Source of the DNA: Gammaproteobacteria bacterium
GTDB taxonomy: Bacteria > Pseudomonadota > Gammaproteobacteria > Pseudomonadales > Azotimanducaceae
NCBI GenBank assembly: GCA_020832085.1
Contig: JAFIFJ010000138.1
Location: 9,534-73,533 of the forward strand
Reading direction: 5' to 3'
DNA: 64,000 bases
Under the pieces are notes generated by a model. The model saw only the letters and a list, made by a program, of their open reading frames with translations. It searched no databases and was not told where the DNA came from. Positions 15,154 through 33,837 of this stretch are shown here, piece by piece. Position 1 is the stretch's first letter, and each line of letters begins with the position of its first letter. The translations under genes and the position numbers were made by a program.

Positions 15154-15154
15154 T

Positions 15155-15170
15155 TGGGCAGACCTTTGCA
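15155..15170 (+). promoter_or_regulatory. Candidate sigma54 (-24/-12) promoter for uraH
   Basis: TGGGCAGACCTTTGCA: TGG-N9-TGCA with GG-N10-GC spacing. It begins 2 nt beyond the divergent puuE ATG and about 97 nt upstream of the uraH ATG. Confidence 0.45.
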
Positions 15171-15266
15171 GGAGAGGAGCCAGGGGCTGGGACTGCGGCG
15201 CTTCGACCGGGCGTGCGACTTGCATCGCGTCGGGTTAACGTCAGCATGTCTGCCAGCGAGGAAACC

Positions 15267-15626: not shown

Positions 15627-15716
15627 AAACATCGCCCGCACTGCGGGCTCCCACCATGGGCGGGCAGCGGCTCCGGTCGTGTGGCTGCACCTGACCACTG
15701 CGTTGCGCTGCAGCCA
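15626..15716 (-). ncRNA. Hypothetical sigma54-dependent small RNA (~90 nt)
   Basis: Inferred only. A perfect sigma54 promoter at 15742-15727 predicts a start near 15716. The transcript has a 5' stem (GGCUGCA...UGCAGCC) and ends in the REP hairpin GCCCGCAGUGCGGGC followed by GAUGUUUU. No coding potential. Confidence 0.25.
15631..15660 (+). repeat. REP-like palindromic element, copy 1
   Basis: ATCGCCCGCACTGCGGGCTCCCACCATGGG with a perfect GCCCGC-ACT-GCGGGC hairpin (15634-15648). About 27/30 identical to the reverse complement of 18484-18512. Resembles Pseudomonas-type GTGGGAGC REPs. Confidence 0.55.
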
Positions 15717-15744
15717 GGACAGTGCCAGCAAGGACAGTGCCAGC
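15716..15744. repeat. Tandem direct repeat (14-mer x2, period 15)
   Basis: AGGACAGTGCCAGC a AGGACAGTGCCAGC in the uraH-puuD spacer. The junction of the two copies creates the minus-strand sigma54 consensus. Confidence 0.8.
15727..15742 (-). promoter_or_regulatory. Consensus sigma54 promoter on the minus strand (no downstream gene)
   Basis: Minus strand reads TGGCAC-TGTCC-TTGCT, a full match to TGGCAC-N5-TTGCW. It points away from puuD and toward the 3' end of uraH. Confidence 0.55.
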
Positions 15745-15760
15745 TGGCCCGTATCCTGCT
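15745..15760 (+). promoter_or_regulatory. Candidate sigma54 promoter for puuD
   Basis: TGGCCCGTATCCTGCT (TGG-N9-TGCT), about 38 nt upstream of the puuD GTG. It sits back-to-back with the minus-strand element through the palindrome CCAGCTGG. Confidence 0.45.
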
Positions 15761-15797
15761 TCGTCGGTGGCGCTGACCGTACCTTGGGGAGACGTTC

Positions 15798-18572: not shown

Positions 18573-18639
18573 AAGGACATGCTTCGGCTGACGGCGGTCC
18601 CTAGGATGAGTCGGGATCGGCGGTGCTGCCATGGGGGTA

Positions 18640-18655
18640 TGGTGCGAGCATTGCA
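18640..18655 (+). promoter_or_regulatory. Candidate sigma54 promoter for permease-xdhABC
   Basis: TGGTGCGAGCATTGCA (TGG-N9-TGCA with -12 TTGCA). It lies inside the 5' end of track ORF 18631.., which argues for a later start codon. Confidence 0.5.
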
Positions 18656-18726
18656 TGGTGGTCGCCGCATCGTGCCGGGACTGCGCCGACGCTGGGTCGG
18701 CGGCAGGGTCTGGTCGGGAGGGTGAG

Positions 18727-21546: not shown

Positions 21547-21577
21547 GCGCCGCCCGCGCTGACTGCAGGCAAGCCTC

Positions 21578-23836
21578 ATGAAGGCCTCACCCCATGACAG
21601 CGCGGTGCTGCACGTGCGGGGCGAGGCGCGCTACACCGATGACATTCCGCTGCCGGCGAACACCCTGCACGCGGCGTTCGGGGTCAGCCCGGTGGCCCAT
21701 GGGCGCATCGAGGGCATGGACCTCACAGCCGTTCGGGCCGAACCCGGGGTGGTGGCGGTGCTCACCGCTGCCGACATTCCTGGGGCGAACAACTACGGCG
21801 GCATCGTGGCAGACGACCCCATCCTGGCGCAGGACATGGTGGCCCATGTGGGCCAGCCGGTGTTCCTCGTGGCGGCGCTCAGCCGCACGGCTGCGCGCCG
21901 GGCGGCCCTGAAGGGACAACTGGAGATTCGGGAACGTCCGGCACTGCTGGACATCCGCTCGGCGCTGGCGGCGGAGTCCTTCGTGATTCCGAGCAAGCGC
22001 CTTGCGCGGGGCGACCCCGACGGGGAACTGCAACGGGCCCCGCGAAGACTCAGCGGAACCGTCAGCATGGGCGGCCAGGACCACTTCTACCTGGAAGGTC
22101 AGGTCGCAGTGGCTCTGCCCCAGGAGGATGGCGCCATGCTGGTGCACAGCTCGACCCAGCATCCGAGTGAGGTGCAGCACATCGTCGCCCATGCGCTGGG
22201 GGTCGCCAGTCATGCCGTAACGGTGACCTGCCGGCGCATGGGAGGCGGCTTCGGCGGCAAGGAGAGTCAGCCGGCGCTGCTGGCTGCAGCAGCAGCGGTG
22301 ATGGCGCGCCACAGCGGACGGCCGGTGAAGCTCAGGCTCGATCGCGATGCCGACATGATCAGCACCGGCAAGCGCCATGACTTCCTGGCTGACTACGATG
22401 TGGGTTTCGATGACGACGGGCGCATCCGGGCCTTGAAGGTCATGTTGGCTTCACGCTGCGGGCACTCCGCCGATCTCTCCGGACCCGTAAACGACCGCGC
22501 GGTCTGCCATCTGGACAATGCCTATTACCTGGAGCACGTGGAGATCGTCTCCCATCGCTGCCGGACCCATACGGTATCCAACACGGCCTTCCGCGGCTTT
22601 GGCGGACCTCAGGGCATGATGGTGATCGAGCACATCCTCGACGACGTGGCCCGCAGCCTCAACCGGGATCCGCTTGCGGTGCGGCGGGCGAATCTCTATG
22701 GCGTCGGTGAGCGCAACGTGACCCCCTACGGCCAGACGGTGGAGGACAACCTGCTGCCGGAGCTGATCGATGAGCTTGAACGCGACAGCCACTACGCCTC
22801 CAGGCGGGCGGAGATCACGGCCTGGAATGCGCAGCAGCCGGTGATCAGGCGTGGCCTCGCCCTGACGCCGGTGAAGTTCGGCATATCGTTCACGAACACG
22901 GCGTTCAATCAGGCCGGCGCGCTGATCCAGATCTATCGGGACGGGACCGTGCTCCTGAACCATGGTGGGACGGAGATGGGCCAGGGACTGCACACCAAGG
23001 TGGTGGCGGTGGTGGCGCGGGAACTCGGGGTGCCGCTGACGGCGGTTCGCATCACCGCCACGGATACCAGCAAGGTCCCGAATACCTCCGCCACCGCGGC
23101 GTCCAGCGGCTCCGATCTCAACGGCATGGCGGCCCAGGCGGCGGCGCGAACCCTGCGCGAACGGCTGGTGGAGTTCATCCGTGAGCGCGACGGCATTGAT
23201 CTCGATGCAGGCGACTTCGCCGAGGGGCGGGTGCGGCTGGGCACGGGCAGTATCCCCTTTGGGGAACTGGTGGAGCAGGCCTATCAGGCGCGGATTCCGC
23301 TGTCCGCAACCGGCTTCTATCGGACGCCCAAGATCCACTGGGACATGAACCGGCTGCAGGGGCGGCCCTTCTTTTACTTTGCCTACGGCGCAGCCGTGGT
23401 GGAGGTTGCCGTGGATCTGCTGACGGGCGAATCGCGACTGCTGGCCGTGGACATCCTGCATGATGTGGGCAGTTCCCTGAATCCGGCCATGGACATCGGT
23501 CAGATCGAGGGCGGGTTTCTGCAGGGCGTGGGCTGGCTGACCTCAGAGGAGCTGCGCTGGAACGCAGACGGGGCACTGGCGACCCATGCCCCGTCCACCT
23601 ACAAGATTCCCACCGCTTCGGATTGGCCGGAGATGGCGCGGGTGCGCCTGTTCGGACGTCCCAACATGGAGGCGACCATCTACCGCTCCAAAGCCGTCGG
23701 CGAGCCCCCGCTGATGCTGGCCATTGCGGCCCTTCATGCCATCCGGGATGCGGTGGCATCCACGCCTGCGGGGGCCGGGCGGCCGCGCCTGATGGCCCCC
23801 GCCACACCGGAGGCCGTGCTGTGGGCCACATCATGA
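21578..23836 (+). CDS. xdhB: Xanthine dehydrogenase molybdopterin-binding subunit
   Basis: 752 aa. GEARYTDDIP, GGGFGGKE, FRGFGGPQG, and the GEPPL-type C-terminal motif (KAVGEPPLMLA). Confidence 0.9.
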   Translation: MKASPHDSAVLHVRGEARYTDDIPLPANTLHAAFGVSPVAHGRIEGMDLTAVRAEPGVVAVLTAADIPGANNYGGIVADDPILAQDMVAHVGQPVFLVAALSRTAARRAALKGQLEIRERPALLDIRSALAAESFVIPSKRLARGDPDGELQRAPRRLSGTVSMGGQDHFYLEGQVAVALPQEDGAMLVHSSTQHPSEVQHIVAHALGVASHAVTVTCRRMGGGFGGKESQPALLAAAAAVMARHSGRPVKLRLDRDADMISTGKRHDFLADYDVGFDDDGRIRALKVMLASRCGHSADLSGPVNDRAVCHLDNAYYLEHVEIVSHRCRTHTVSNTAFRGFGGPQGMMVIEHILDDVARSLNRDPLAVRRANLYGVGERNVTPYGQTVEDNLLPELIDELERDSHYASRRAEITAWNAQQPVIRRGLALTPVKFGISFTNTAFNQAGALIQIYRDGTVLLNHGGTEMGQGLHTKVVAVVARELGVPLTAVRITATDTSKVPNTSATAASSGSDLNGMAAQAAARTLRERLVEFIRERDGIDLDAGDFAEGRVRLGTGSIPFGELVEQAYQARIPLSATGFYRTPKIHWDMNRLQGRPFFYFAYGAAVVEVAVDLLTGESRLLAVDILHDVGSSLNPAMDIGQIEGGFLQGVGWLTSEELRWNADGALATHAPSTYKIPTASDWPEMARVRLFGRPNMEATIYRSKAVGEPPLMLAIAALHAIRDAVASTPAGAGRPRLMAPATPEAVLWATS

Positions 23837-23870
23837 AAAGTCGTTTCTGGATTGCCGCAGGTCGGATTCG

Positions 23871-24851
23871 ATGAAGGGCTTCTGGGCACAACTCGAAGCC
23901 GAACTCAACCTGGGCTCTCCGGTCTATCTGGTCCTGGTGGTGGCCCACCGGCGGGGTTCCCCGGGGACGGTGGGGGCGCGCATGTTCGTCTGCGCCGACG
24001 GCAGGCAGGTCGGCACCATCGGCGGCAGCGTGCTGGAGCTCGATCTGGTCGGGCGGGCGCGGGAGCTTCTGGCCGCAGCGCCGTCCGGGGCGGACCTGCC
24101 GAAACTGGAACGCTTCGTCCATCGCCGCTCCGATCCCCTGCACATTGCTCCGGGAGAATCGGGACTCATCTGTTCCGGGTGGCAGCAGCACGTTAGCGTC
24201 GCGCTGCGGCCGGAGCGGGACCTCGAGACCATCCACGCCATTGCCGAGTGCGACGCTCAGGGTGGCTACGGAGCGGTCTGGATCACCCAGGCGGGTATTC
24301 AGTTCGACGATGCTGCGCCGGATCTGATGTCTCCTGCCATCGATCTGCAGACAGAGCGGGGATGGCGGGTGGAAGAGCAGCTCCTGAATCGTCAGCGACT
24401 GGTCATCTTCGGCGGGGGCCATTGTGGTCTGGCACTGAGTCGGGTCATGGCGGAACTCGACTGGTACATCACCGTGGTCGACCGGCGGGCAGACGTGGCC
24501 ACGTTCCGCGACAACGACTGCGCCGACCAGCATGTGCTGGTGGAGGACTTTGCGAGCGGCGCCGAGAGTCTCAGCTGGCCGCAGCTCACCGACGCCATCG
24601 TGATGACCACGGACTATCACAGTGATGTGCGCGCTCTGCTCGGATGCTTGGGGCAGCCCTTGCGCTCCATTGGCGTCATGGGCAGCCCCGCCAAACTGCG
24701 GGTGATCCGTGAGGCGCTGACGGACGCCGGTGTGGGCGCCGCCGATCTGGCGCGGGTCCGCGGACCGGTGGGTCTGCGCATGAAGAGCGATACCCCTGCG
24801 GAGATCGCCGTCAGCGTCGCCGCTGAGCTGCTGCAGTTCGCGGATAGATAG
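23871..24851 (+). CDS. xdhC: Xanthine dehydrogenase accessory protein XdhC
   Basis: N-terminal XdhC/CoxI domain (VLVVAHRRGSPGTVGARMFV...GTIGGSVLE) and a C-terminal Rossmann-like RLVIFGGGHCGLAL. Confidence 0.8.
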   Translation: MKGFWAQLEAELNLGSPVYLVLVVAHRRGSPGTVGARMFVCADGRQVGTIGGSVLELDLVGRARELLAAAPSGADLPKLERFVHRRSDPLHIAPGESGLICSGWQQHVSVALRPERDLETIHAIAECDAQGGYGAVWITQAGIQFDDAAPDLMSPAIDLQTERGWRVEEQLLNRQRLVIFGGGHCGLALSRVMAELDWYITVVDRRADVATFRDNDCADQHVLVEDFASGAESLSWPQLTDAIVMTTDYHSDVRALLGCLGQPLRSIGVMGSPAKLRVIREALTDAGVGAADLARVRGPVGLRMKSDTPAEIAVSVAAELLQFADR

Positions 24852-24971: not shown

Positions 24972-24987
24972 TGGCATGGAAGCTGCA
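24972..24987 (+). promoter_or_regulatory. Candidate sigma54 promoter for the PNP-like/TonB-receptor operon
   Basis: TGGCATGGAAGCTGCA (-24 TGGCAT, -12 CTGCA, correct GG-N10-GC spacing), about 47 nt upstream of ATG 25034. Confidence 0.55.
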
Positions 24988-25033
24988 GATCGACCTCCAT
25001 CGTCGGGTGGCTGGGCAAGAGGGCAGGTCGGGT

Positions 25034-25969
25034 ATGGTATGGGGTCGTTCTTTGAAGCGGATGCTGCTGGCCATGGTGCTGCTGCTGGCGACGGTGGCCT
25101 GCGCAGAAGCCGAGGAGTCTATCTTCATCGCCGTGGTAGGCGGTACCAGCTTCGGGGCGCCGGACCGTTTCGGCCAGGGGCTGGCGGAACTCGAGCGCGA
25201 GTTCACGGTGGAAACCGTGGCCGGCACGAGTCCGGTGATCTATCAGATGCGCTATGACGGCGTGCCGTTCTACTACATCCGCATGTACGGCCATGAAGTG
25301 CGCAGCGTCGGTCAGCCGGAGTACATCGGCCTGATCCGCACCTTTGCCGCGCTCTACGACCTCGGCGTCACCCATGTGCTCAGCGGCGCCAGCTCCGGTG
25401 GGATCAACCCGGAATACGACTACGGCGACATCGTCATCCTCTCTGACTTCATGGAGTGGGAGACCCAGCGGCCCGCCAACATTCTTCAGTACACCGGCAT
25501 CCAGCGCCCGGGCTACTTCGCCAATTTCGAAGTGCCGTTCAGTCCGTCGCTGAGCGCGCTGCTCGTCGATGAGGCGCGCAAGCGCATGGACGGCTACGAC
25601 GGTCGGCTCTACGAGACCGGGGTCTTCGCCCAGCATTCGCCGCTGCGTTTCGAGAGTCCGGCGGAGGTACGGGCCATGGCCATGCTCGGCGCGGAACTGA
25701 CGAGCATGTACCAGGCCACCTGCGCCATCTATGCGCGACAGCTGGGCATGCGCTACGCGTCCATCAGCTCCATCGGCAATCCCGCCGTGGGGGTGCGTCC
25801 TTTCACCTTTGCCGACATGCAGTCCGCGGTGCAGCGCATTGCTGCTCTGGCGGTGCCGGTGGTGCTCGATGTGATCGCCAGGATTCCCACGGAGGCCATG
25901 GAGCCGGAGCCGAGCAGCACCGGCGAGCGCTTCACGGGCAGTTATGTGGATCCGGACGCAGAAGATTGA
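25034..25969 (+). CDS. Exported MTAP/PNP-family phosphorylase-like protein
   Basis: Signal peptide MVWGRSLKRMLLAMVLLLATVACA/EA. The body aligns by eye with the in-window MTAP homologue: IAVVGGTSFG vs IIAGTGF, SPLRFESPAEV vs GPRLETPAEV, LTSMYQATCAIYARQLG vs VGMTGMPEAALARELD, IGNPAVG vs VVNPAAG. Confidence 0.6.
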   Translation: MVWGRSLKRMLLAMVLLLATVACAEAEESIFIAVVGGTSFGAPDRFGQGLAELEREFTVETVAGTSPVIYQMRYDGVPFYYIRMYGHEVRSVGQPEYIGLIRTFAALYDLGVTHVLSGASSGGINPEYDYGDIVILSDFMEWETQRPANILQYTGIQRPGYFANFEVPFSPSLSALLVDEARKRMDGYDGRLYETGVFAQHSPLRFESPAEVRAMAMLGAELTSMYQATCAIYARQLGMRYASISSIGNPAVGVRPFTFADMQSAVQRIAALAVPVVLDVIARIPTEAMEPEPSSTGERFTGSYVDPDAED

Positions 25970-26141
25970 ACGGGATGGATGCGAAGCCGATGGGGCGCGG
26001 CTTCGAGCGGGGCAGCAGGACGGAGCGGGAAGCTCCGGCAAGGGGTAACGGAGTCAAGCATGGCGCAGGTTGAGCCCCTCTCGGGGCTGTGTCCTTACTC
26101 GTGCGTGGCGCGTCGATGGGTGTTCTCGAGGAGTTCTCACT

Positions 26142-28520
26142 ATGGGGTTGCAACGTAACAAACGGCCATGGGGCGGCGGCTTGCTCGTCTCTGCAGCATG
26201 GGCTTGCGCGTTCGTGGCGCCGGTTCTGGGGCACGCGCAAGGTAATTCCGGCATGATCGACGAGATCGTCGTCACCGGCGAAGTTGTGGATCGACTCGGC
26301 ATCATTCCGGACGAGGAGGTGGACTCCATTTTTGGATCGAGCCGCTCCCTGCTGGAAACGCCGCGTTCCGCCACCATGATCAGTTCAGAGCTGCTCGAGC
26401 AGTACAACGCCCAAGACATCAACGATCTGGTGCGGTTCTCGCCCGGAGTCTATACCAGCTCCTTCTTCGGGGTGGCCGGCAACCTCGACGTACGCGGATC
26501 ACCGGGTGACAACTACTTCCGCGGCATGAAGCGCATCGAGAACCCCGGCAACTTTCCGACGCCCATCGGCGCCTCGGACCGGGTGGATATCGTTCGTGGA
26601 CCGTCGTCTCCGGTCTACGGCCCTGGCAAGGTCGGTGGCTATCTGAATTTCGTGCCCAAGTCGGCCCGGGCGGATACCGGGCGCTTTATGCGTGGCGTGC
26701 GCGGTTCGGCCACGGCCACCTGGGGCTCCCACGGCAAGCGCGTCGGTGCCGCTGAATTCGGCGGTCCCATGAAAGTGGGCGATACCGAGGCTGGATACTA
26801 TGTGTATGGCCTCTACGAAGACTCCAGCAGCTACTACCGGCACAACTTCCAGGATCAGATCATCCTGCAGTCCACCTTCGACTTCGACCTGACTGATACC
26901 TTGAATTTCACCGTCGGGCAGCAGTACCACAACTACAAAGGTACTGAGAACGCTGGCTGGAACCGCATCAGTCAGCGGCTGATCGATGACGGCATCTATC
27001 TGGCGGGCAGCCCACTGGTGCCGCTGGATACTGATGGAGACGGCTTCATCAGCGGCCAGGAAGTGCTGGCGGCGGGCAGCCTGTTCGTCTTCCACCCCTT
27101 TGGTTCACCGGTGGACAATCCGCTGTTTCATCTCGACCCGGCTACCGTCCGGGAGGTGGAGATCAGTCGCAAGCAGGTGCTGATCGATGACATCGACCGC
27201 ATCAAGTCCGACAGCTTCGCCTTCTTCGCGGATCTGGAATGGGAGGCCAGTGATCAGCTCAGGGTCACCAATAAGTTCTTCCTGGACTATCTCAGCCGCG
27301 ACAAGCGTGCTTCCTACGGCTTTTCCCAGGACAATCAGGCGGTGTCCATCGAGAACAAGATCCTGGTGCAGTTCTCCCAGGAGTATGAGTGGGGCAGCCT
27401 CGATGCATCCCTGGCACCGTCCTATCGCTACTACCGGGCGACCGATCGCGGCGACTTCGACTTCGAGTACTTCGACCGTCGCGACCTGACCCTGCCCCGG
27501 GGCACGCCGGTGGATCGCATTCTCACCTCGCTGCAGGACAACATCCAGACGCCCTGGACGGCGGATGAGCGCTCGACCCTGCACAATCCAGGCGTGGGGC
27601 TGTTGGTGGATGCCGAGTTCTTCGACCGGGCCTTCATCATCCTCGGCTGGCGTTACGACTGGCTGGACCTGAAGTCCTTGGCCCGCCACGACAACGATCG
27701 CCGCGACAGCAAGACCTTCAAGGCGCCGTCCTGGTCGGCGAGCCTGTCGGTGGATATCGGTGCCGGCCTGCGTCCCTATGTCACCTGGGCTGAGCAGTCG
27801 ACCCTCATTACCAACCAGACCGGTGGGGTGCCCGCCAACCTGGTCCGGGATGGGGATGCACTGGATGATTCCGAACTCAGGGAAGTCGGCATCAAAGGCC
27901 TGCTGTTCGACGGGCGGGTGTACGTCACTGCGGCTCACTACGAGCAGAAACGTTCCAGCTTCAGCGCCCAGACCCTCACGGTGCTCGCCACCGAGAGCAA
28001 GGGACAGGAACTGGAACTGCGCTGGGTGGTGAACGACGAACTCAGCATCACCGGAGCGGCCACCTGGCAGACCACGAAGTACAACCCGGTGACGGACCGC
28101 TTCATCTTCGCCAGTCCGGCGTTGACCGGCCTGCCTCCGGAACTCAGCTACGGCGGCACCATCGGGTCAACCGTGGGTCTGGTGGGCGGTGATGCAGTGA
28201 AGCGGGCCGGTGTGCCCGAGTTCCTCCTCAGCATCTTCGCCAACTACGAACTGCGGGAGTGGGATTTCTCCCTGGGTCTGACTCAGCAGGACAGCGTGGA
28301 CTCGGGGGTCGGCGGTGCAGTCCGGCTGCCCAGTGCCACCCTGGTGACGGCCTCCGCGGGCTGGTCACGGGGCCCCTGGCGGCTGCAGGCCAGCGGCACC
28401 AACCTGCTCAATGAGCGCTACTTCCGCGGGCTGTTCCCGGATATCTTCGGCGACTCGGTGGTGTTCCCGGAGCGTCCCCGTTCCTTCGAGTTGCGCGCCA
28501 CCTACGCGTTCGGTGGTTGA
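26142..28520 (+). CDS. TonB-dependent outer-membrane receptor
   Basis: Signal peptide, TonB-box-like IDEIVVTG, plug motifs (RSATMISSELL, DINDLVRFSPGV, RGPSSPVYG) and a long beta-barrel. The C-terminus ends ...RATYAFGG, two Gly beyond the usual terminal aromatic residue. Confidence 0.85.
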   Translation: MGLQRNKRPWGGGLLVSAAWACAFVAPVLGHAQGNSGMIDEIVVTGEVVDRLGIIPDEEVDSIFGSSRSLLETPRSATMISSELLEQYNAQDINDLVRFSPGVYTSSFFGVAGNLDVRGSPGDNYFRGMKRIENPGNFPTPIGASDRVDIVRGPSSPVYGPGKVGGYLNFVPKSARADTGRFMRGVRGSATATWGSHGKRVGAAEFGGPMKVGDTEAGYYVYGLYEDSSSYYRHNFQDQIILQSTFDFDLTDTLNFTVGQQYHNYKGTENAGWNRISQRLIDDGIYLAGSPLVPLDTDGDGFISGQEVLAAGSLFVFHPFGSPVDNPLFHLDPATVREVEISRKQVLIDDIDRIKSDSFAFFADLEWEASDQLRVTNKFFLDYLSRDKRASYGFSQDNQAVSIENKILVQFSQEYEWGSLDASLAPSYRYYRATDRGDFDFEYFDRRDLTLPRGTPVDRILTSLQDNIQTPWTADERSTLHNPGVGLLVDAEFFDRAFIILGWRYDWLDLKSLARHDNDRRDSKTFKAPSWSASLSVDIGAGLRPYVTWAEQSTLITNQTGGVPANLVRDGDALDDSELREVGIKGLLFDGRVYVTAAHYEQKRSSFSAQTLTVLATESKGQELELRWVVNDELSITGAATWQTTKYNPVTDRFIFASPALTGLPPELSYGGTIGSTVGLVGGDAVKRAGVPEFLLSIFANYELREWDFSLGLTQQDSVDSGVGGAVRLPSATLVTASAGWSRGPWRLQASGTNLLNERYFRGLFPDIFGDSVVFPERPRSFELRATYAFGG

Positions 28521-28582
28521 TCGATGAGGCCGAGGCACGCCTGCCGGGACGCGGGCGTGCTTCGGTAGTACCGGAGAGAGGC

Positions 28583-29608
28583 ATGGACTACACGGAATTC
28601 CTGCGGCGGGTTCCGAAGGTGGAGCTGCACTGTCACCTGGAAGGGACCGTGCGCGCCGCCACGTTCGCCGATCTGGCCCGCAAACACGGCGTAACCCTGC
28701 CCACCAGCGAGGTGGACAGCCTGTACGAGTACGACACCATTGAGGCCTTCCTCGAGATTTTCGGTCTGGTCGCTTCGACCCTGATCGACGAAGAGGACTT
28801 CGAGCGCGTGGCCTTCGAGTCCCTGGAAGACGGCCAGCGCCTGGGCAACCTCAAGTATCGCGAGATGTTCTTCAATCCCACGCTGCATACCCGTCGAGGG
28901 GTCCCTTACCGGACCGTGGTGGATGGGCTGGCGGCCGGCATCCGTCGCGCTGACCGTGAACTTGGCGTCGGTTGCCGACTTATTGCCGACGTCTACCGGC
29001 AGGACAGTCCCGCCATGGCCCTGGCCATGGTGGAAGAAGTGCTCGCTCATCGTCCTGACGAGGTCATCGGACTGGGGATGGACGGTGCGGAGGCGCCGGA
29101 CCCACCCGAGCGTTTCGCCGCGGCCTTTGCCCGGGCCCGTGCCGGCGGCCTGCGTCTCACCAGTCATGCCTGCGAGGACGCCCCGCCGAAGAACATCATC
29201 ACCTGTCTGGATCTTCTCGGCTGTGAACGCATCGACCACGGCTATCACATCCTGGCGGACGAAGCCGTGGTGCGACGTGCTCTGGACGCAGGGCTCTACT
29301 TCACCTGCTGTCCGACGGCCACCGCGCGGGTCTACGGCTGGCCCGATCTCAGCCGGCATCCCATCGGCGGCATGGTGAAGGCGGGCCTGAACGTGACGCT
29401 CAATTCCGACGATCCCACCATGTTCCACACAGACATCGGCCGGGAGTTCGTGGATCTCTGCACGGCGCTGGATTACGGCCCGGAGCAGGTGCGGCAGTTC
29501 TGCCTGAACAGCGTCGACGGCAGCTGGCTCGATGATGCCGACAAGGCGCGACTGCGAAGAGAGGTGGCGGCCGAGTTCGACGCTCTGCATGCGGAGATCG
29601 CGCCATGA
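28583..29608 (+). CDS. Adenosine/adenine deaminase family protein, paralog 1 (cytoplasmic)
   Basis: MDYTEFLRRVPKVELHCHLEGT (HxH), SHACED in place of AHAGEE (Glu kept), ERIDHG, TLNSDDP. No signal peptide. Confidence 0.8.
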   Translation: MDYTEFLRRVPKVELHCHLEGTVRAATFADLARKHGVTLPTSEVDSLYEYDTIEAFLEIFGLVASTLIDEEDFERVAFESLEDGQRLGNLKYREMFFNPTLHTRRGVPYRTVVDGLAAGIRRADRELGVGCRLIADVYRQDSPAMALAMVEEVLAHRPDEVIGLGMDGAEAPDPPERFAAAFARARAGGLRLTSHACEDAPPKNIITCLDLLGCERIDHGYHILADEAVVRRALDAGLYFTCCPTATARVYGWPDLSRHPIGGMVKAGLNVTLNSDDPTMFHTDIGREFVDLCTALDYGPEQVRQFCLNSVDGSWLDDADKARLRREVAAEFDALHAEIAP

Positions 29609-30030
29609 AGCCCTTGGCAGGGCTAGGTGTCCTCGTCGGCACCCTGGCAGTGATGGGCTGTACTGCAACGCCTCCTGCGGTGAGCGCAGTGGACTGTGGC
29701 GGCATGCAGAGTGCGTTGCGCAGCGAACTGTTCTTCGGCATGACCCATCGTCGCGGCGCGGCCATCGCTGAAGCCGATTGGGAGGACTTTCTGGCCAACT
29801 CGGTCACAGCGCGTTTTCCTGACGGGCTCAGCGTCATCGAGGCGCGTGGCCAGTGGCGCAACCCGGGCACGGGTGCGCTGGTGAGACAGCCGGCGCGGGT
29901 CCTGCTCATCATCCATCCTGACGATGCCCGCAGCGATGCGTCCCTGGAAGCGCTGCGCGAGGATTACAAGGCCCGCTTCGATCAGATCTCCGTGCTGCGG
30001 GTGACCCAGCCGGTGTGCATGGCGTTCTGA
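29605..30030 (+). CDS. DUF3574-like lipoprotein
   Basis: MKPLAGLGVLVGTLAVMGC lipobox. SELFFGMTHRRGAAIAEADWEDFLANSVTARFPDGLSVIEARGQW matches my recollection of DUF3574. ATGA overlap with paralog 1; its stop abuts the paralog 2 ATG. Confidence 0.5.
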   Translation: MKPLAGLGVLVGTLAVMGCTATPPAVSAVDCGGMQSALRSELFFGMTHRRGAAIAEADWEDFLANSVTARFPDGLSVIEARGQWRNPGTGALVRQPARVLLIIHPDDARSDASLEALREDYKARFDQISVLRVTQPVCMAF

Positions 30031-31197
30031 ATGCGCACGGCCCGAGGAGTTCGAAAAGACATGGCAGATCGAATCACGGCTCGGGGCGCTGGACTCATGC
30101 TACTGCTCGGGCTCGTACTGGCGGCGCCCCTTCAGGCTCATGCTGGCGCAGCCGATCCTGGCGCGGTCGCGGACTTCATCATGGGTCTGCCGAAGACTGA
30201 GCTGCACATTCATCTCGAAGGCACGCTGGAAGCGGAAGACTATCTGGCGCTGATGGCTCGCAATGGGCGCGATTCGCCCTATGGGGATGCGGCAGCCGTC
30301 CGCGACAGACTCACCTACGCTCGCGATCTCGACACCTTCATCGAAGTGTATGAGGAACTGCTCGGTGCCATGGAGACGGCCCATGACTTCGAGCAGGTGG
30401 CGATGACCTACATCGAGCGGGTTTCGGCCCAGGGCGTGATCTACGTCGAAATGTTTTTCGATCCGCAGATGCATACCTACCGGGGCGTTGCACTAGAGAC
30501 GGTGATGGAAGGTCTGTATCGGGCCCACGCGCGGGCGCCGGTGGAATACGGCGTAGAGCTCTGGTTCATCGCCTGTTTCAACCGGGATCGGTCGGCAGCG
30601 TCTGCCCTTCGTCACCTCGAGGCCCTCGCGCCCTATCAGGACATCGTCATTGGTGTGGGTCTGGACAATCCCGAGGAGATCGGTTTCCCGGAAAAGTTCG
30701 CCACCGTGTTTGCTCGCGCTGCCGCCATGGGATTCCGCCGGACTACCCATCTCGATGTGGATGTCCCCAACACCATCGAGCATCACTGGTCGGCCCTTCG
30801 CCTGCTGGACATCGAGCGCATCGATCATGGCCTGAACGTGGCGGATGACCCGGGGCTGATCGTCGCGGTGCGCGAGGCCGGTATTGCACTGACGGCCTGT
30901 CCGACGCTTCTGTATCGCGATATTCCGGGTCGGCTCGAGGGTCGACTGGCGCGGATTCGAACCTTGCTCGATGCCGGTATCGAGATATCCCTGCATTCGG
31001 ATGATCCGGGCCTGATGCGTGATCTTTACGTGGGTGATCTGTATCTGCTGGCGCACCTCGAAGGGGGATTCACCCGTGCGGAGATCGTCGCTTTGGCCCG
31101 CAACAGTCTCCTCAGCGCCTGGGTGGACGAGGACCGGCGCAGGATCTGGCTGCAGGCCTTCGATGCCTGGCTTCAGGCGCATCCCGTAGCCTTCTGA
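30031..31197 (+). CDS. Exported adenosine-deaminase-superfamily protein, paralog 2 (non-canonical active site)
   Basis: Signal peptide ...GLMLLLGLVLAAPLQAHA/GA, then ELHIHLEG (HxH), ERIDHG and SLHSDDP. The HAGE motif is replaced by THLDVD (Glu position is Val). Alternative start at 30061. Confidence 0.7.
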   Translation: MRTARGVRKDMADRITARGAGLMLLLGLVLAAPLQAHAGAADPGAVADFIMGLPKTELHIHLEGTLEAEDYLALMARNGRDSPYGDAAAVRDRLTYARDLDTFIEVYEELLGAMETAHDFEQVAMTYIERVSAQGVIYVEMFFDPQMHTYRGVALETVMEGLYRAHARAPVEYGVELWFIACFNRDRSAASALRHLEALAPYQDIVIGVGLDNPEEIGFPEKFATVFARAAAMGFRRTTHLDVDVPNTIEHHWSALRLLDIERIDHGLNVADDPGLIVAVREAGIALTACPTLLYRDIPGRLEGRLARIRTLLDAGIEISLHSDDPGLMRDLYVGDLYLLAHLEGGFTRAEIVALARNSLLSAWVDEDRRRIWLQAFDAWLQAHPVAF

Positions 31198-31221
31198 CCG
31201 AGCCGCCGTTCCCGCCCGGTT

Positions 31222-32256
31222 TCATGGCCGGGCATGTGCCAGCAGGTAACGGTCCAGCTCTGCCAGCTTTTCCGCTCTGGCGGGCGCCGGCAGAAAGCTG
31301 GCCTCGAAGGCGTGGCGGTTGATCCGGGCTGCCTGCTCTGCAGTCAGCCGCAGATGCTCATGCAGGGCGATGAAGTTCTCGTTCAGGAAGCCGCCGAAGT
31401 AGGTGGGGTCGTCGGAATTCACGGTGACCCTGACGCCCGCAGCCAGCAATTGGAGCAGATTGTGGTTCGCCATGCTGTCGAAGACCTTGAGTTTGACGTT
31501 CGACAGCGGGCAGACGGTGAGGGGAATCCCTTCGCGGGACAGGCGCGCCAGCAGGGCCGGATCCTCGGCGCTGCGTACGCCATGGTCGATGCGCTCGACG
31601 CCGAGAAGATCGAGGCTGTCGGCGACGAAGCCCGCCGGACCCTCCTCGCCGGCATGGGCGGTGGCCCGGTATCCTAACGAGCGTGCCCGGGCGTAAAGTT
31701 CCGTGAAGTCTGCCGGCGGGTGGCCGAGTTCCGAGCTGGCCAGACCGATGGCGACGAAACCATCCGGGCAGGCCCGGTGGGCCTGCTCCAGGACCTCGAG
31801 GCCATCGCGCTCCGGCAGATGGCGCAGCAGACTCAGAATGAGCAGCACCGACTGTCCCCAGCCTGCCTGGGCTTCGGCCATGGCCTGCTTGAACCCGGAC
31901 ATCATCGTCGCCAGCGATACGCCGCTCGGGAGGTAGGACTGGGGTTCGATCATGATTTCGGTGTGCGTGATGTGCTGATCCCGGCAGGCGCTGAGGTAGT
32001 CGAGCATCAGCAGATAGAAGTCCTCCTCGTCGCGGATCACCGATGTGCCCATGTAGTAGAGATCGAGAAAACTCTGCAGATTCTCGAAGGCATAGGCGTC
32101 AGTCACGTCTTCGACGCTCCGGTAGGGAATGTCGAACCCGTGCTTCGCTGCCCGGTCCAGCAACCGTGAGGGCCTGAGTGTCCCGTCGAGGTGGACGTGC
32201 AGCTCCGCCTTGGGCATGGCGGATATCCACGAGGCGAAGGCAGCGCTGCTCTGCAT
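31222..32256 (-). CDS. Adenine/adenosine deaminase, Pseudomonas ADE-like paralog 3 (cytoplasmic)
   Basis: MPKAELHVHLDGTL, AYAFENLQSFLDLYY, TAHAGEEGP, ERIDHGVR, CPLSNVKLKVF, TVNSDDPTYFGG. Very like the PA0148-type adenine deaminase as I recall it. ATG at 32256 (track ORF starts at TTG 32268). Confidence 0.8.
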   Translation of the reverse strand: MQSSAAFASWISAMPKAELHVHLDGTLRPSRLLDRAAKHGFDIPYRSVEDVTDAYAFENLQSFLDLYYMGTSVIRDEEDFYLLMLDYLSACRDQHITHTEIMIEPQSYLPSGVSLATMMSGFKQAMAEAQAGWGQSVLLILSLLRHLPERDGLEVLEQAHRACPDGFVAIGLASSELGHPPADFTELYARARSLGYRATAHAGEEGPAGFVADSLDLLGVERIDHGVRSAEDPALLARLSREGIPLTVCPLSNVKLKVFDSMANHNLLQLLAAGVRVTVNSDDPTYFGGFLNENFIALHEHLRLTAEQAARINRHAFEASFLPAPARAEKLAELDRYLLAHARP

Positions 32257-32260
32257 GGCG

Positions 32261-33763
32261 TTACTCAAAGCTGATCCCGAAGTTCCGCAGCGCGTAGCCG
32301 TAGGTTTCTGCCTCCACTTCCCACAGTCCGGCGCGCCAGTCGCCGATGCCGAAGCGCTGCTCGAAGGCCCGGATGTCGGCGTCGTACTCTGCCAGCAGGC
32401 GTTGCTTGATGGGTTCCTCGACGAAAGCGTGTTCCAGACTGTTGCGCCCCACCTGCACCAGCTCAGGCCAGGACAGATTGAAGCGGGTGACGGCCACGTA
32501 GTACTCGTCGCTCATGTTGGAATCCCACATGCCGCGATCGTCGGTGTTCAGCGCCACCGGGATGCCGAGGCGCAGGAACTGGGGGAAGGGGTGCAGGTCG
32601 AGATCCGGCGTGTACTCCAGCAGGTGGTTGCTGATCAGGTTGTTCTCGAGCAGGAAGGGCCCGTGGCGCAGCAGCAGCAGCGTGTCGTCGTCATGAATGA
32701 CGTCGATGCCGTGGCCGATGCGGTCGGCACCGAGCAGCAGGGTTTCCCGGACATGGCGCGAGGGCCGATCCGTCTCGCCGGCATGGATGGACAGGCGAAT
32801 GTCCGGGTACTTCCGCCGCATCTCGGCGAAGACCTGCCGGAAACGTTCCGGGTGGCCGCGGTCGTCGTCTTCGCGGCCGGCCATGTTGACGGCCACCCAC
32901 AGATCCCGATAGCGATCGACGAAGGCATAGGCATCGCGGACACGCTGCTCGGCGTCCGGGGTGAAGCGCAGCACGGTCTGCTGGAAACGCACCACCACGC
33001 CGGTGGCCAGAGCGTCGGGCTGCTGCAGCCGCGCCCGGTAGATGTTGACCACGTCGTCCACGGCAATCGGTTCGCCATCGGGATCGACGAAGCCGGCCGC
33101 GCCAGTCTGGGTCTCCAGGTAGCGCAGGCCCTCGGCGCCATAACGCTTCATGTTCTCCACCAGCAGTTCGGCATTGATGTGGGGATTGCGGAACAGTTCA
33201 CCGATGCGGTTCCAGATGCGCTCGAAGAACTCGTCCCGGCCCTCGTGGGGCAGCTCCAGACGCAGGCTGGACAGCCAGGCCGCCCGGGTGTCGTCGTCGA
33301 GGCCGTCGAGGGGCTCGTACTCGCGCTGCTTGCACTCGTCGAGGGTGGCGTAGGTGGAGGCCTGAATGGTCTGGAAGTACAGCAGGTAGGGGCGGGGCCG
33401 AACTTCACCGATGCGCGCCGGATCGGCGGGACGACCGGTGCCGCTCGGACAGTTGTGGATCATGGTCTTGGTGTAATAGCGGTAGCCGCCATTGCGGTCC
33501 GGGTCCACGGCGAGGGCGTACCACCATTCGGAGCGGCTGGATCCGCCGAGGTGGTTGTGGATGTCGCCGCCCTTGGGCATGGCGTAGAGGAAGCGGTAGA
33601 GCTCCTCGGGGCTGGCATCCTGCTTGATGCGCTCGAAGCGTTCGGCGAACGCGAGCTGGCGGCTGTCCTCGAATGCGCTGACCGGCAGTGCCGCTGACAG
33701 CGCCACGGCAGCAAGGGCAAGCAGGGCGAAGCCCCGGTAGAGGACAGCGAGAGATCGGATCAT
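32261..33763 (-). CDS. Exported ADGF/ADA2-like adenosine deaminase, paralog 4
   Basis: Signal peptide MIRSLAVLYRGFALLALAAVALSAALPVSA/FE, a long N-terminal extension, GGDIHNHLGG, SIHAGETD, RIGHG, ALNTDDRGM. Start at the internal Met of ORF 32261..33928. Confidence 0.75.
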   Translation of the reverse strand: MIRSLAVLYRGFALLALAAVALSAALPVSAFEDSRQLAFAERFERIKQDASPEELYRFLYAMPKGGDIHNHLGGSSRSEWWYALAVDPDRNGGYRYYTKTMIHNCPSGTGRPADPARIGEVRPRPYLLYFQTIQASTYATLDECKQREYEPLDGLDDDTRAAWLSSLRLELPHEGRDEFFERIWNRIGELFRNPHINAELLVENMKRYGAEGLRYLETQTGAAGFVDPDGEPIAVDDVVNIYRARLQQPDALATGVVVRFQQTVLRFTPDAEQRVRDAYAFVDRYRDLWVAVNMAGREDDDRGHPERFRQVFAEMRRKYPDIRLSIHAGETDRPSRHVRETLLLGADRIGHGIDVIHDDDTLLLLRHGPFLLENNLISNHLLEYTPDLDLHPFPQFLRLGIPVALNTDDRGMWDSNMSDEYYVAVTRFNLSWPELVQVGRNSLEHAFVEEPIKQRLLAEYDADIRAFEQRFGIGDWRAGLWEVEAETYGYALRNFGISFE

Positions 33764-33821
33764 GGTGCAGGCTCCTCGTGATGCTGGTCTGGTTTTGGAC
33801 TGAATCCCCAACCTTTGGGCA

Positions 33822-33837
33822 TGCACGCAGCGTACCA
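33822..33837 (-). promoter_or_regulatory. Candidate sigma54 promoter for the ADGF-like/ADE-like operon
   Basis: Minus strand TGGTACGCTGCGTGCA (TGG-N9-TGCA). It lies in the 82-bp gap between the csiV stop and the ADGF-like start, about 58 nt upstream of that ATG. Confidence 0.5.

What the first reader, a model, noticed from the sequence alone, without database searches (positions are those of the whole stretch)
24972..33837. Envelope-located adenine-nucleoside capture locus: TonB-dependent receptor, exported PNP-like protein, four deaminase paralogs (two exported), DUF3574 lipoprotein
Two converging operons make up the locus.

Plus strand, behind a sigma54-type promoter:
- an MTAP/PNP-family protein with a signal peptide
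- a TonB-dependent receptor
- a cytoplasmic deaminase (HCH, SHACED, NSDDP)
- a DUF3574-like lipoprotein
- an exported deaminase paralog

The last three are tied together by an ATGA overlap and a TGA-ATG junction.

Minus strand, behind another sigma54-type promoter:
- an exported ADGF/ADA2-like deaminase
- a Pseudomonas-type adenine-deaminase-like paralog

Four members of one superfamily from four different sub-clades sit in 5.2 kb. Two are exported, and they lie beside an outer-membrane active transporter. Normal purine salvage uses one cytoplasmic add and a porin or NupC-type route.

Immediately upstream are the lipoprotein 5'-nucleotidase (16987-18366), the NCS2 permease and the xdh/urate genes. 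Taken together, the region reads as a system that captures adenine nucleosides, nucleotides or modified adenines. It would deaminate or phosphorolyse them in the periplasm and feed hypoxanthine into nitrogen-yielding catabolism.

I know of no characterised proteobacterial TonB-dependent nucleoside system with this composition.
Basis: partly seen in the sequence, partly recalled or inferred. Interest (0 to 1): 0.8.

Follow-up and report, generated by a model that had tools for sequence, protein, structure and literature searches.

The report
TonB-dependent purine nucleoside scavenging locus
An uncultured gammaproteobacterium pairs an energy-driven outer-membrane importer with exported purine-degrading enzymes, and relatives of that importer sit beside purine genes in most other bacteria examined, which points to a route for harvesting scarce purines as nitrogen that I could not find described.

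Summary
The described genes are all present, and the domain calls hold. The genes are:
- an exported PNP-like protein
- a TonB-dependent receptor (TBDR)
- a cytoplasmic A_deaminase
- a DUF3574 lipoprotein
- an exported A_deaminase paralog
- on the other strand, an exported ADGF-like deaminase followed by a PA0148-type adenine deaminase

They lie next to an AzgA-like nucleobase permease, xdhABC, urate-to-ammonia genes and a lipoprotein phosphoesterase.

The main new result is comparative. In 55 of 67 loci of at least 12 kb, purine genes lie within 10 kb. These are mostly exported ADGF-like deaminases, exported NUP (PF06516) proteins, exported PNP-like proteins and NCS2 permeases. The loci come from Gammaproteobacteria, one Sphingobium and Verrucomicrobia. 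No Fur box or siderophore context was found.

Corrections:
- DUF3574 and the four-deaminase set are specific to this lineage.
- The exported paralog g5 lacks the catalytic HxxE glutamate and belongs to an uncharacterised H-C/L-D-V/I subfamily.
- The sigma54 sites are weak matches but are conserved in orthologous loci.

Literature searches found no description of a purine or nucleoside TBDR outside Bacteroidales.

The parts
24972..24986 (+). sigma54-type -24/-12 element (TGGCATGGAAGCTGC) upstream of g1
   Evidence: It is a 2-mismatch match, not enriched over shuffles. TGGCA[TC]G-N4-CTGC is invariant in L087, L088 and L001 within an otherwise diverged spacer.
25034..25969 (+). g1: exported PNP/MTAP-like protein (the ORF opens at 24971; the likely start is 25034)
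   Evidence: - PF01048, E 5e-20. All NCBIfam PNP/MTAP equivalogs are far below cut-off.
- Signal peptide ending ..TVACA|EAEE.
- GGT, RFES-AE and GNPA motifs resemble a 6-oxopurine PNP.
- 34% identical to the exported PNP-like protein next to the Povalibacter TBDR.
- The family is rare: 7 cluster representatives at E<=1e-30.
26142..28520 (+). g2: TonB-dependent outer-membrane receptor
   Evidence: - Plug and barrel domains.
- Signal peptide ..LGHA|QG and a DEIVVTG TonB-box-like motif.
- Homolog family with conserved purine-gene context.
28583..29608 (+). g3: cytoplasmic A_deaminase (HCH, HACE, NSDDP motifs), closest to the 4gxw type
   Evidence: - PF00962, E 6e-74; TIGR01430 281 bits against a cut-off of 217.
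- Best solved relative is 4gxw, E 7e-63.
- No signal peptide.
- Orthologs of 76-92% identity in L091, L001 and L087.
29605..30030 (+). g4: DUF3574 lipoprotein, overlapping g3 by ATGA
   Evidence: - PF12098, E 1e-32.
- Lipobox VMGC.
- Cys present near the mature N-terminus and near the C-terminus in most homologs.
- Model pLDDT 88.5 with a beta-alpha-beta-beta-alpha-beta order of elements.
- Foldseek top hits are phage SAM lyase, CutA and PII-like proteins.
30061..31197 (+). g5: exported A_deaminase-family paralog lacking the HxxE glutamate (HLDVDV); an alternative start is 30031
   Evidence: - PF00962, E 1e-53.
- Signal peptide ..LQAHA|GA.
- The motif replacement shows in alignments to 3rys and 3ou8.
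- All 120 nearest homologs have the replaced motif.
31222..32256 (-). g6: cytoplasmic PA0148-type adenine deaminase
   Evidence: - NF006850, 426 bits against a cut-off of 419.
- 3ou8, E 6e-98.
- HAGE motif intact.
- No signal peptide.
32261..33763 (-). g7: exported ADGF/ADA2-like deaminase, 4 nt upstream of g6
   Evidence: - PF00962, E 2e-34; TIGR01431 78 bits, below its cut-off.
- A family profile hits ADGF-family structures first: 9nte, 9nti, 3lgd.
- HxH, HAGE, H and DD residues are invariant, and a Cys pair is conserved.
- Signal peptide ..PVSA|FEDS.
33823..33837 (-). sigma54-type -24/-12 element (TGGTACGCTGCGTGC) upstream of g7
   Evidence: It is a 2-mismatch match. It is identical in L087 and L088 while the flanks diverge.
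16987..18366 (-). lipoprotein metallophosphoesterase (5'-nucleotidase-like)
   Evidence: - PF00149, E 3e-10.
- The ortholog in L001 has a faint 5_nucleotid_C hit.
- Lipobox LVAC.
- Syntenic in L001 and L087.
18631..20049 (+). AzgA-like NCS2 nucleobase permease (candidate inner-membrane step)
   Evidence: PF00860, E 3e-45. The N-terminal motif is typical of adenine/guanine/hypoxanthine permeases (own knowledge). NCS2 permeases recur in 23 of 67 related loci.
20071..24851 (+). xdhA, xdhB, xdhC (xanthine dehydrogenase and its maturation factor)
   Evidence: TIGR02963 573 bits against a cut-off of 467; TIGR02965 1195 against 850; XdhC domains.
12902..17030 (.). urate-to-ammonia genes: ureidoglycine aminohydrolase (12902-13738 -), PuuE allantoinase/OHCU decarboxylase (13735-15225 -), PuuD urate oxidase (15798-17030 +), with a perfect sigma54 site at 15728-15742 (-)

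Best explanation
The locus is the envelope front end of a nitrogen-regulated purine catabolic region.

**Proposed pathway**
1. The TonB-dependent receptor g2 actively imports scarce purine compounds across the outer membrane. These are most likely adenine or hypoxanthine nucleosides. The lipoprotein phosphoesterase may first release them from nucleotides.
2. In the periplasm, the ADGF-like enzyme g7 deaminates adenosine (possibly also AMP) to inosine.
3. The exported PNP-like enzyme g1 has residues typical of 6-oxopurine PNPs. It cleaves inosine or guanosine to the free base.
4. The AzgA-like NCS2 permease carries hypoxanthine, adenine or guanine across the inner membrane.
5. In the cytoplasm, g6 (PA0148 type) converts adenine to hypoxanthine.
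6. XdhABC, PuuD, PuuE/OHCU decarboxylase and ureidoglycine aminohydrolase then release the ring nitrogen.

**Regulation.** Transcription of the two converging units is probably sigma54-dependent, that is, nitrogen-controlled.

**Shown versus inferred**
- Shown: gene content, catalytic-residue status, export-type N-termini, and conserved linkage of this TBDR family to exported purine enzymes.
- Inferred: the transported substrate, the order of the periplasmic reactions, whether g1 works by phosphorolysis or hydrolysis, and the regulation.
- Unassigned: g3 (4gxw-like, cytoplasmic), g5 (exported, altered active site) and DUF3574. All three are accessory parts specific to this lineage.
For: - **Domains and export pattern:**
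- **TBDR context elsewhere:**
  - Povalibacter uvarum (43% TBDR identity): ADGF-like, TBDR, PNP-like, two NUP, 8-oxoguanine deaminase, xdhABC, Bmp.
  - A Verrucomicrobia MAG: TBDR flanked by three exported AdeC-type adenine deaminases.
  - L091 (53%): ADGF-like, S1-P1 nuclease, 5'-nucleotidase, TBDR, its own TonB-ExbBD set, g3-type deaminase, two NUP, DUF3574.
  - Genome loci of at least 12 kb: 55 of 67 have purine genes within 10 kb. NUP occurs in 46, ADGF-like in 33 and NCS2 in 23.
  - This context is spread across the whole TBDR tree.
- **g7:** all ADA catalytic residues are invariant in the family, and ADGF-family structures are the top profile hits.
- **g1:** the RFE[ST]xAE and [GS]NPA motifs are conserved in all 10 exported PNP-like sequences aligned.
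- **g6:** passes the NF006850 cut-off and matches 3ou8 at E 6e-98. The title of Goble et al. 2011 states that Pa0148 deaminates adenine (reference list seen).
- **Catabolic genes:** pass curated cut-offs.
- **Sigma54 elements:** conserved in orthologous loci. A perfect site lies in the puuE/puuD spacer.
- **No iron signature:**
Against: - There is no experimental evidence of any kind.
- Nucleosides are small enough for porins, so the need for a TBDR rests on analogy with other low-concentration nutrients.
- The nearest curated and solved relatives of g2 are siderophore receptors, although the matches are weak.
- 12 of 67 related loci have no purine genes nearby.
- The phosphate-binding residues of g1 are only partly conserved: the R60 equivalent is absent, and the T197 position is Y, N or S.
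- g5 lacks the catalytic glutamate.
- The window holds no sigma54 activator gene, no tonB-exbBD genes and no HIU hydrolase among the proteins I scanned.
- The exact gene set varies even among close relatives.
Confidence: 0.65

Rival explanations
1. The architecture is the same, but the real substrate is extracellular nucleic acid. Nucleotides or short oligonucleotides cross the TBDR and are dephosphorylated by the lipoprotein phosphoesterase before deamination and cleavage.
For: - L091 places an exported S1-P1 nuclease and a 5'-nucleotidase lipoprotein directly upstream of the TBDR.
- The window has a lipoprotein Metallophos protein 6 kb upstream, syntenic in relatives.
- The closest solved relative of the ADGF-like family is an AMP deaminase, 9nte.
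- Bacteroidales ddb loci couple nucleases to an outer-membrane transporter.
Against: No nuclease was found among the window genes I scanned. A nuclease was seen in only one related locus. The 5'-nucleotidase C-terminal domain of the window protein is not detected by Pfam. Most related loci carry only ADGF-like and NUP genes.
Confidence: 0.18
2. The TBDR imports free purine bases (adenine, guanine). The exported nucleoside enzymes act on substrates that enter through porins.
For: - In L003, L009 and L013 the TBDR sits next to AdeC-type adenine deaminases, which in L003 carry signal-type N-termini, with no nucleoside-cleaving enzyme seen.
- g5 and g6 both derive from the adenine-deaminase branch.
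- NCS2 nucleobase permeases are frequent neighbours.
Against: The most frequent immediate neighbours are ADGF-like deaminases (nucleoside or nucleotide type) and NUP proteins. Bases are even smaller than nucleosides and pass through porins more easily.
Confidence: 0.1
3. The TBDR is a metal or metallophore receptor (Zn, Ni, Co or Mo) that supplies the many metalloenzymes of the region. Its position next to purine genes reflects cofactor demand.
For: - The best curated and solved matches are siderophore or metallophore receptors, including CntO.
- A HupE_UreJ_2 membrane protein lies next to the TBDR in L003 and L091.
- A_deaminases use Zn, and XDH uses Mo.
Against: - All those matches are far below family cut-offs and cover only the plug or the last barrel strands.
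- No Fur box is present.
- No metallophore biosynthesis genes and no metal-transporter genes were seen in the window's locus or in the orphan loci.
- The partners that recur are exported purine enzymes and nucleobase permeases.
Confidence: 0.04
4. In this lineage the system targets adenosyl-sulfur compounds (SAM, MTA, SAH). DUF3574 would act as a SAM-lyase-like enzyme, and g1 as an MTA/MTI phosphorylase.
For: - The DUF3574 model's best PDB matches are phage SAM lyase with bound MTA and SAM-AMP lyase.
- g1's best NCBIfam hit by E-value is MTAP.
- A cytoplasmic MTI phosphorylase gene lies at 11608-12342.
Against: - The Foldseek TM-scores are only 0.5-0.63, and hits with different functions (CutA, PII-like proteins) score similarly.
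- DUF3574 occurs in unrelated contexts elsewhere.
- g1 has Asn where MTAP has Asp220.
- No catalytic residues were checked.
Confidence: 0.03

Closest known systems
TonB-dependent nutrient-utilisation loci of Proteobacteria (for example Xanthomonas CUT loci with SuxA, Caulobacter MalA and NagA).
   Same: A TBDR is clustered with periplasmic substrate-processing enzymes and an inner-membrane permease, for a low-abundance organic nutrient and not for iron.
   Different: The substrate class is purines. The enzymes are deaminases, PNP-like and NUP proteins instead of glycosidases. Neither a 2024 review of TBDT substrates nor a 2012 survey of marine TBDTs mentions a purine or nucleoside receptor.
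Bacteroidales DNA-utilisation locus ddbABCDEF (PMC12478041)
   Same: It pairs an outer-membrane transporter with secreted nucleic-acid enzymes, and it ends in deaminated nucleobases.
   Different: The ddb locus is related to a Bacteroidota natural-transformation system and resembles Bacteroidales polysaccharide-utilisation loci (section headings). It acts on DNA through nucleases. The locus here has no nuclease, carries exported deaminases and a PNP-like enzyme, and feeds complete purine-ring catabolism.
Enterobacterial nucleoside route: Tsx porin, NupC/NupG, cytoplasmic Add and DeoD
   Same: The chemistry is the same: adenosine to inosine to hypoxanthine.
   Different: Here entry would be through an energised receptor and not the Tsx channel (Tsx is not a TBDT). 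Deamination and cleavage are placed in the periplasm. The inner-membrane step is a nucleobase permease.
Eukaryotic secreted ADGF/ADA2 (CECR1) deaminases and Helix pomatia AMP deaminase
   Same: g7 and its family are exported, and they carry an insertion after the HxH motif with a conserved Cys pair. ADGF-family structures are the best profile matches (9nte E 3e-36, 3lgd E 2e-28).
   Different: The relationship is distant: TIGR01431 scores 78 bits against a cut-off of 315, and no A_deaminase_N domain is detected. These are bacterial periplasmic enzymes linked to a TBDR.
Pseudomonas aeruginosa PA0148 adenine deaminase and the xdh/puu purine catabolic cluster
   Same: g6 passes the matching NCBIfam equivalog and matches 3ou8 at E 6e-98. 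The xdhABC and puu genes pass curated cut-offs.
   Different: In the window these ordinary cytoplasmic genes are joined to an envelope module.

Membership tests
TonB-dependent transporter (g2) | N-terminal plug domain plus a C-terminal beta-barrel | tested here: met
   PF07715, E 2e-12, and PF00593, E 2e-14.
TonB-dependent transporter (g2) | Signal peptide and a TonB box ahead of the plug | tested here: met
   Signal ..LGHA|QG and a DEIVVTG motif, judged by inspection and hydropathy only.
Siderophore or cobalamin receptor subfamilies (g2) | Score above the curated family cut-off, with iron or B12 regulation or context | tested here: not met
   - TIGR01783 scores 128 bits against 223, and BtuB models score below 25 bits.
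- No Fur box is present.
- No Rfam riboswitch was found.
- The neighbours are purine genes.
A_deaminase (PF00962) catalytic deaminase (g3, g6, g7) | HxH, HxxE, H and DD metal and catalytic residues | tested here: met
   g3 has HCH/HACE/DHG/SDDP, g6 has HVH/HAGE/DHG/SDDP, and g7 has HNH/HAGE/GHG/TDDR.
A_deaminase catalytic deaminase (g5) | Catalytic glutamate of the HxxE motif | tested here: not met
   HLDVDV aligns to the HAGE of 3rys and 3ou8. All 120 nearest homologs have H[CL]D[VI/P]x[QV] and none has HAGE. The other metal ligands are retained.
PA0148-type adenine deaminase (g6) | Score above the NF006850 equivalog cut-off and close similarity to the solved enzyme | tested here: met
   426 bits against a cut-off of 419, and 3ou8 at E 6e-98. 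Substrate specificity itself was not tested.
ADGF/ADA2 subfamily (g7) | TIGR01431 cut-off, the N-terminal ADGF domain, and secretion | tested here: inconclusive
   TIGR01431 gives 78 bits against 315, and PF08451 is not detected. However, ADGF-family structures are the top profile hits, and a signal peptide and a Cys pair are conserved.
Trimeric PNP/MTAP phosphorylases (g1) | PNP_UDP_1 fold, phosphate-binding residues and base-specifying residues | tested here: inconclusive
   - PF01048 is met, but all equivalogs are far below cut-off.
- GGT, Ser/Thr93, an FE[ST] motif (Glu201-like) and an Asn243-like residue are present.
- The R60 equivalent is absent, and T197 is replaced by Tyr.
- The hMTAP reference sequence came from memory and agrees with the 5eub alignment.
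DUF3574 (g4) | PF12098 match over the full domain | tested here: met
   112 bits against a cut-off of 25, covering 103 of 103 profile positions.
Sigma54-dependent promoter | GG-N10-GC element matching TGGCAC-N5-TTGC, placed upstream of the start, with an activator protein | tested here: inconclusive
   Both sites have 2 mismatches and are not enriched over chance, yet they are conserved in orthologous loci. No activator gene was found among the window proteins scanned.
Conserved TBDR-purine locus (proposed family) | A TBDR of this family adjacent to exported purine-processing enzymes | tested here: met
   The window has exported g1, g5 and g7 around g2. In related loci of at least 12 kb, 51 of 67 have NUP, ADGF-like, PNP-like, ADA or AdeC genes within 10 kb.

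The most novel reading that the evidence does not exclude
g2 represents a widespread family of TonB-dependent transporters dedicated to purine nucleoside or base acquisition that I could not find described. It is found in Gammaproteobacteria (Steroidobacteraceae, Solimonas, Cellvibrio, Alteromonas, Paraglaciecola, Halieaceae), in a Sphingobium and in Verrucomicrobia. It works with a periplasmic purine-processing set: an ADGF-like deaminase, NUP and PNP-like cleaving enzymes, and in some lineages an exported H-C-D-V-type A_deaminase variant and a DUF3574 lipoprotein with new activities.
Probability: 0.55. Interest if true: 0.7.

Novelty: new variant of a known kind. Interest (0 to 1): 0.62.

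Why it matters
- **Ecology.** Purines and nucleosides are nitrogen-rich, and nucleosides are among the phytoplankton-derived metabolites that marine bacteria take up (PMC8027193). A dedicated high-affinity outer-membrane importer with periplasmic processing would be a new entry in the list of TonB-dependent substrates. It would also give a function to receptors that JGI labels 'iron complex outermembrane receptor protein'.
- **Testability.** Several carriers are cultured isolates, so the idea can be tested directly.
- **Unstudied proteins.** The locus points to three protein groups in a defined functional setting:
  - bacterial ADGF-like periplasmic deaminases
  - a rare exported PNP-like family
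  - an A_deaminase subfamily with a replaced catalytic motif

Tried and rejected
- **Fur box:** no match with up to 3 mismatches anywhere in the window. The best upstream matches have 10 mismatches, which equals background.
- **Sigma70 promoter and terminator scans:** nothing above shuffles.
- **Rfam, whole window:** no riboswitch or other RNA family.
- **Repeat search in the locus:** only short similarities between the paralogous deaminase genes.
- **DUF3574 as a general purine-locus marker:** rejected. Three distant members sit in unrelated contexts, and there is no solved homolog by sequence.
- **Exported g5-type proteins as obligate TBDR partners:** rejected. Two members sit outside purine loci.
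- **The 71% TBDR homolog (P0004):** it lies on short contigs with a different context, so it is uninformative.
- **Structure prediction of g7 with locus-derived homologs:** A profile search of PDB sequences replaced it.
- **NUP protein against PDB sequences:** no hit.
- **Literature:** ten searches and several targeted reads found no purine or nucleoside TBDR outside Bacteroidales. The Goble 2011 paper on PA0148 is not held.
- **Orphan TBDR loci:** the neighbours scanned carried no siderophore-related family.

Full report
**Observation**

The window is GC-rich (about 66%). Codon-position GC picks out one clear gene per stretch in 24.9-33.9 kb.
- g1 is PNP_UDP_1.
- g2 is a plug plus barrel TonB-dependent receptor.
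- g3, g5, g6 and g7 are A_deaminase proteins.
- g4 is DUF3574.

The four deaminases are only 27-35% identical to one another, so they are old paralogs from different branches.

The likely true starts are 25034 (g1), 26142 (g2), 28583 (g3), 30061 or 30031 (g5), 32256 (g6) and 33763 (g7). The ATGA overlap between g3 and g4 and the TGA-ATG junction after g4 are in the sequence. The second ATG of g5, 30 nt downstream, has a GAGGAG in front of it and matches the 378-aa NCBI protein.

g1, g2, g5 and g7 have signal-peptide-type N-termini. g4 and the upstream Metallophos protein have lipoboxes. g3 and g6 have neither. No dedicated predictor was available, so this rests on inspection and hydropathy.

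**Surroundings**

Upstream lies a complete route from purine base to ammonia:
- an AzgA-like NCS2 permease
- xdhA, xdhB and xdhC
- PuuD
- a PuuE allantoinase/OHCU decarboxylase fusion
- ureidoglycine aminohydrolase

The enzymes with curated NCBIfam models (xdhA, xdhB, PuuE/OHCU decarboxylase and ureidoglycine aminohydrolase) score above their cut-offs. A cytoplasmic MTI-phosphorylase-type gene lies at 11608-12342. Downstream are csiV and mfd, which are unrelated.

The window is identical to an NCBI Gammaproteobacteria MAG contig of 101,688 bp.

**The receptor family**

The closest TBDR homologs come from MAGs with the same synteny, but the deaminase sets differ:
- The 94% relative lacks g5.
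- The 80% relative lacks g6 and has two g5-like genes.

More distant homologs give the decisive evidence:
- **Povalibacter uvarum (43%).** The TBDR is flanked by an exported ADGF-like deaminase, an exported PNP-like protein (34% identical to g1), two exported NUP proteins, an 8-oxoguanine deaminase, xdhABC, HIU hydrolase and a Bmp nucleoside-binding lipoprotein.
- **A Verrucomicrobia MAG (45%).** The TBDR is flanked by three exported AdeC-type adenine deaminases.
- **A metagenome scaffold, L091 (53%).** It carries an ADGF-like lipoprotein, a HupE_UreJ_2 protein, an exported S1-P1 nuclease, a 5'-nucleotidase lipoprotein, the TBDR, its own TonB-ExbB-ExbD set, a g3-type deaminase, two NUP proteins, DUF3574 and a second TBDR.

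I annotated the best 80 with my own BLAST against reference proteins. Of the 67 loci of at least 12 kb:
- 55 have purine-related genes within 10 kb.
- 51 have NUP, ADGF-like, PNP-like, ADA or AdeC genes.
- NUP occurs in 46, ADGF-like in 33 and NCS2 in 23.

The context is spread over the whole neighbour-joining tree of the receptors. The window, its two MAG relatives, L089 and L091 form one deep branch. Loci without purine genes have unrelated neighbours, with no siderophore-related family among the ten scanned.

Export status is conserved by family. N-terminal hydrophobic stretches occur in 42 of 47 ADGF-like, 14 of 14 PNP-like and 67 of 68 NUP proteins. They occur in 0 of 24 g6-type, 0 of 5 g3-type and 1 of 19 guanine-deaminase-like proteins.

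**Is it an iron or cobalamin receptor?**

- NCBIfam places g2 nearest the generic siderophore subfamily, but at 128 bits against a cut-off of 223. All equivalogs are far lower.
- A family profile matches solved siderophore or metallophore receptors only at E 1e-22 or weaker, and only over the plug or the last strands.
- There is no Fur box and no riboswitch.

**The enzymes**

*g7.* Its family keeps every ADA catalytic residue and a conserved Cys pair in an insertion after the HxH motif. The family profile hits ADGF-family structures first: Helix AMP deaminase 9nte, AGSA 9nti and human ADA2 3lgd. The TIGR01431 cut-off is not reached. I call it ADGF-like. Adenosine is the likely substrate and AMP is possible.

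*g1.* It is a very divergent PNP/MTAP relative (best PDB match E 4e-10). Its family is rare: 7 cluster representatives at E<=1e-30 among 1.84 billion. I aligned it with human MTAP, using a sequence from memory that agrees with the 5eub alignment.
- The exported family conserves GGT, an RFE[ST]xAE motif and an Asn where MTAP has Asp220.
- From my knowledge of trimeric PNPs, Glu201 and Asn243 specify 6-oxopurines. That fits cleavage of inosine after deamination.
- The phosphate site is only partly kept, so phosphorolysis against hydrolysis remains open.

*g6.* It is a PA0148-type adenine deaminase (title of Goble et al. 2011 seen).

*g3.* It is closest to 4gxw, deposited only as 'Adenosine deaminase'; as far as I know its substrate has not been established. 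It is the best conserved protein of the branch, at 76-92% identity.

*g5.* It is the surprise. The HAGE motif is replaced by HLDVDV. All 120 nearest homologs carry H[CL]D[VI]x[QV] or a near variant and none carries HAGE, while the metal ligands and the DHG and DD residues are kept. This is a distinct subfamily that sources annotate as adenosine or adenine deaminase. It has a clade of about 46 exported members, plus cytoplasmic members in Actinobacteria and Alteromonadales. Exported members are not always in purine loci. Its reaction is unknown.

*DUF3574.* Most members are lipoproteins or carry signal peptides, with a Cys near each end of the mature protein. The model is confident (pLDDT 88.5). 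Its best structural matches are trimeric adenine-nucleotide or nucleoside-binding folds: phage SAM lyase with MTA, SAM-AMP lyase, CutA and PII-like proteins. TM-scores are 0.5-0.63. This is a lead only, because hits with quite different functions score similarly and DUF3574 occurs in unrelated contexts elsewhere.

**Regulation**

- The two proposed sigma54 sites are each 2-mismatch matches. Such matches are not enriched in the window.
- The g1 site (TGGCA[TC]G-N4-CTGC) is invariant in three lineages whose spacer is otherwise diverged.
- The g7 site is identical in the 94% relative while its flanks differ.
- A perfect TGGCAC-N5-TTGC site with a tandem near-copy lies between puuE and puuD.
- No sigma70 consensus site was found in the locus.
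- No activator gene was found among the window proteins scanned.

Nitrogen control through sigma54 is plausible but unproven.

**Mechanism proposed**

1. The TBDR captures scarce purine nucleosides, possibly after nucleotide dephosphorylation by the lipoprotein phosphoesterase.
2. g7 deaminates them in the periplasm.
3. g1 cleaves the 6-oxopurine nucleoside.
4. The AzgA-like permease imports the base.
5. g6 and XDH, followed by the urate pathway, release nitrogen.

The rivals differ mainly in the transported species: nucleotide or oligonucleotide, free base, or metal. The metal reading is the weakest.

**Comparison with what is known, and novelty**

TonB-dependent utilisation loci for non-iron nutrients are a known kind. 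The nearest functional analogue is the Bacteroidales ddb DNA-utilisation locus. [quoted passage not shown] A 2024 review of TBDT substrates mentions nucleosides only for the Tsx porin, which is not a TBDT. A 2012 survey of marine TBDTs mentions no purines. Ten full-text searches found no proteobacterial purine or nucleoside TBDR.

I therefore rate this a new variant of a known kind. The library does not cover most subscription journals, so an existing description cannot be excluded.

Noticed in passing
window 15713-15742 (-): A perfect sigma54 consensus (TGGCACTGTCCTTGC) sits with a tandem 1-mismatch copy in the divergent spacer between puuE/OHCU decarboxylase and puuD.
   Followed up: partly
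window 30031-31197 (g5) and its homologs P0241-P0360: This is an A_deaminase subfamily in which the catalytic HAGE motif is replaced by H[CL]D[VI]x[QV] in all 120 nearest homologs. The other metal and catalytic residues are kept. It includes a clade of about 46 signal-peptide-bearing members. Sources annotate it as adenosine or adenine deaminase, and no solved structure has this motif.
   Followed up: partly
window 11608-12342 (+): A cytoplasmic S-methyl-5'-thioinosine phosphorylase-type gene (NF006599, 292 bits against a cut-off of 223) lies at the edge of the purine region. It implies a deaminate-then-cleave logic for MTA, as in Pseudomonas.
   Followed up: no
L003 14383-15678 and L091 3903-5066: A HupE_UreJ_2 (PF13795) membrane protein with a signal-like N-terminus recurs next to the TBDR in two distant loci. 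Its role (metal supply or purine transport) is unknown.
   Followed up: no
L091 5069-15448: One related locus encodes its own DUF3450/ExbB/ExbB/ExbD/TonB/TPR set directly after the TBDR. Directly before the TBDR it has an exported S1-P1 nuclease and a 5'-nucleotidase lipoprotein.
   Followed up: partly
window 29605-30030 (g4) and alignment A4: The DUF3574 model (pLDDT 88.5) resembles phage SAM lyase, SAM-AMP lyase, CutA and PII-like folds. Most homologs have a Cys near the mature N-terminus and another in the C-terminal C-x-x-F motif, which suggests a periplasmic disulfide.
   Followed up: partly
L005 13624-15751 and 46 of 67 related loci of at least 12 kb: NUP (PF06516, 'purine nucleoside permease') proteins next to the TBDR almost always carry signal peptides or lipoboxes (67 of 68) and have no solved homolog by sequence. 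Their annotation as permeases looks doubtful, and a periplasmic nucleoside-processing role seems more likely.
   Followed up: partly
window 31197-31240: The converging g5 and g6 genes are only 24 nt apart. A short GCCCGG/CCGGGC inverted repeat overlaps the 3' end of g6, and no canonical terminator was detected.
   Followed up: no
L001 13360-14022 against the source's gene call at 13489-13908 (-): In the 80% relative, the public gene call places a 139-aa ORF with no Pfam hit on the minus strand, where the plus strand encodes the DUF3574 ortholog (72% identical to g4). This is probably a mis-annotation.
   Followed up: no
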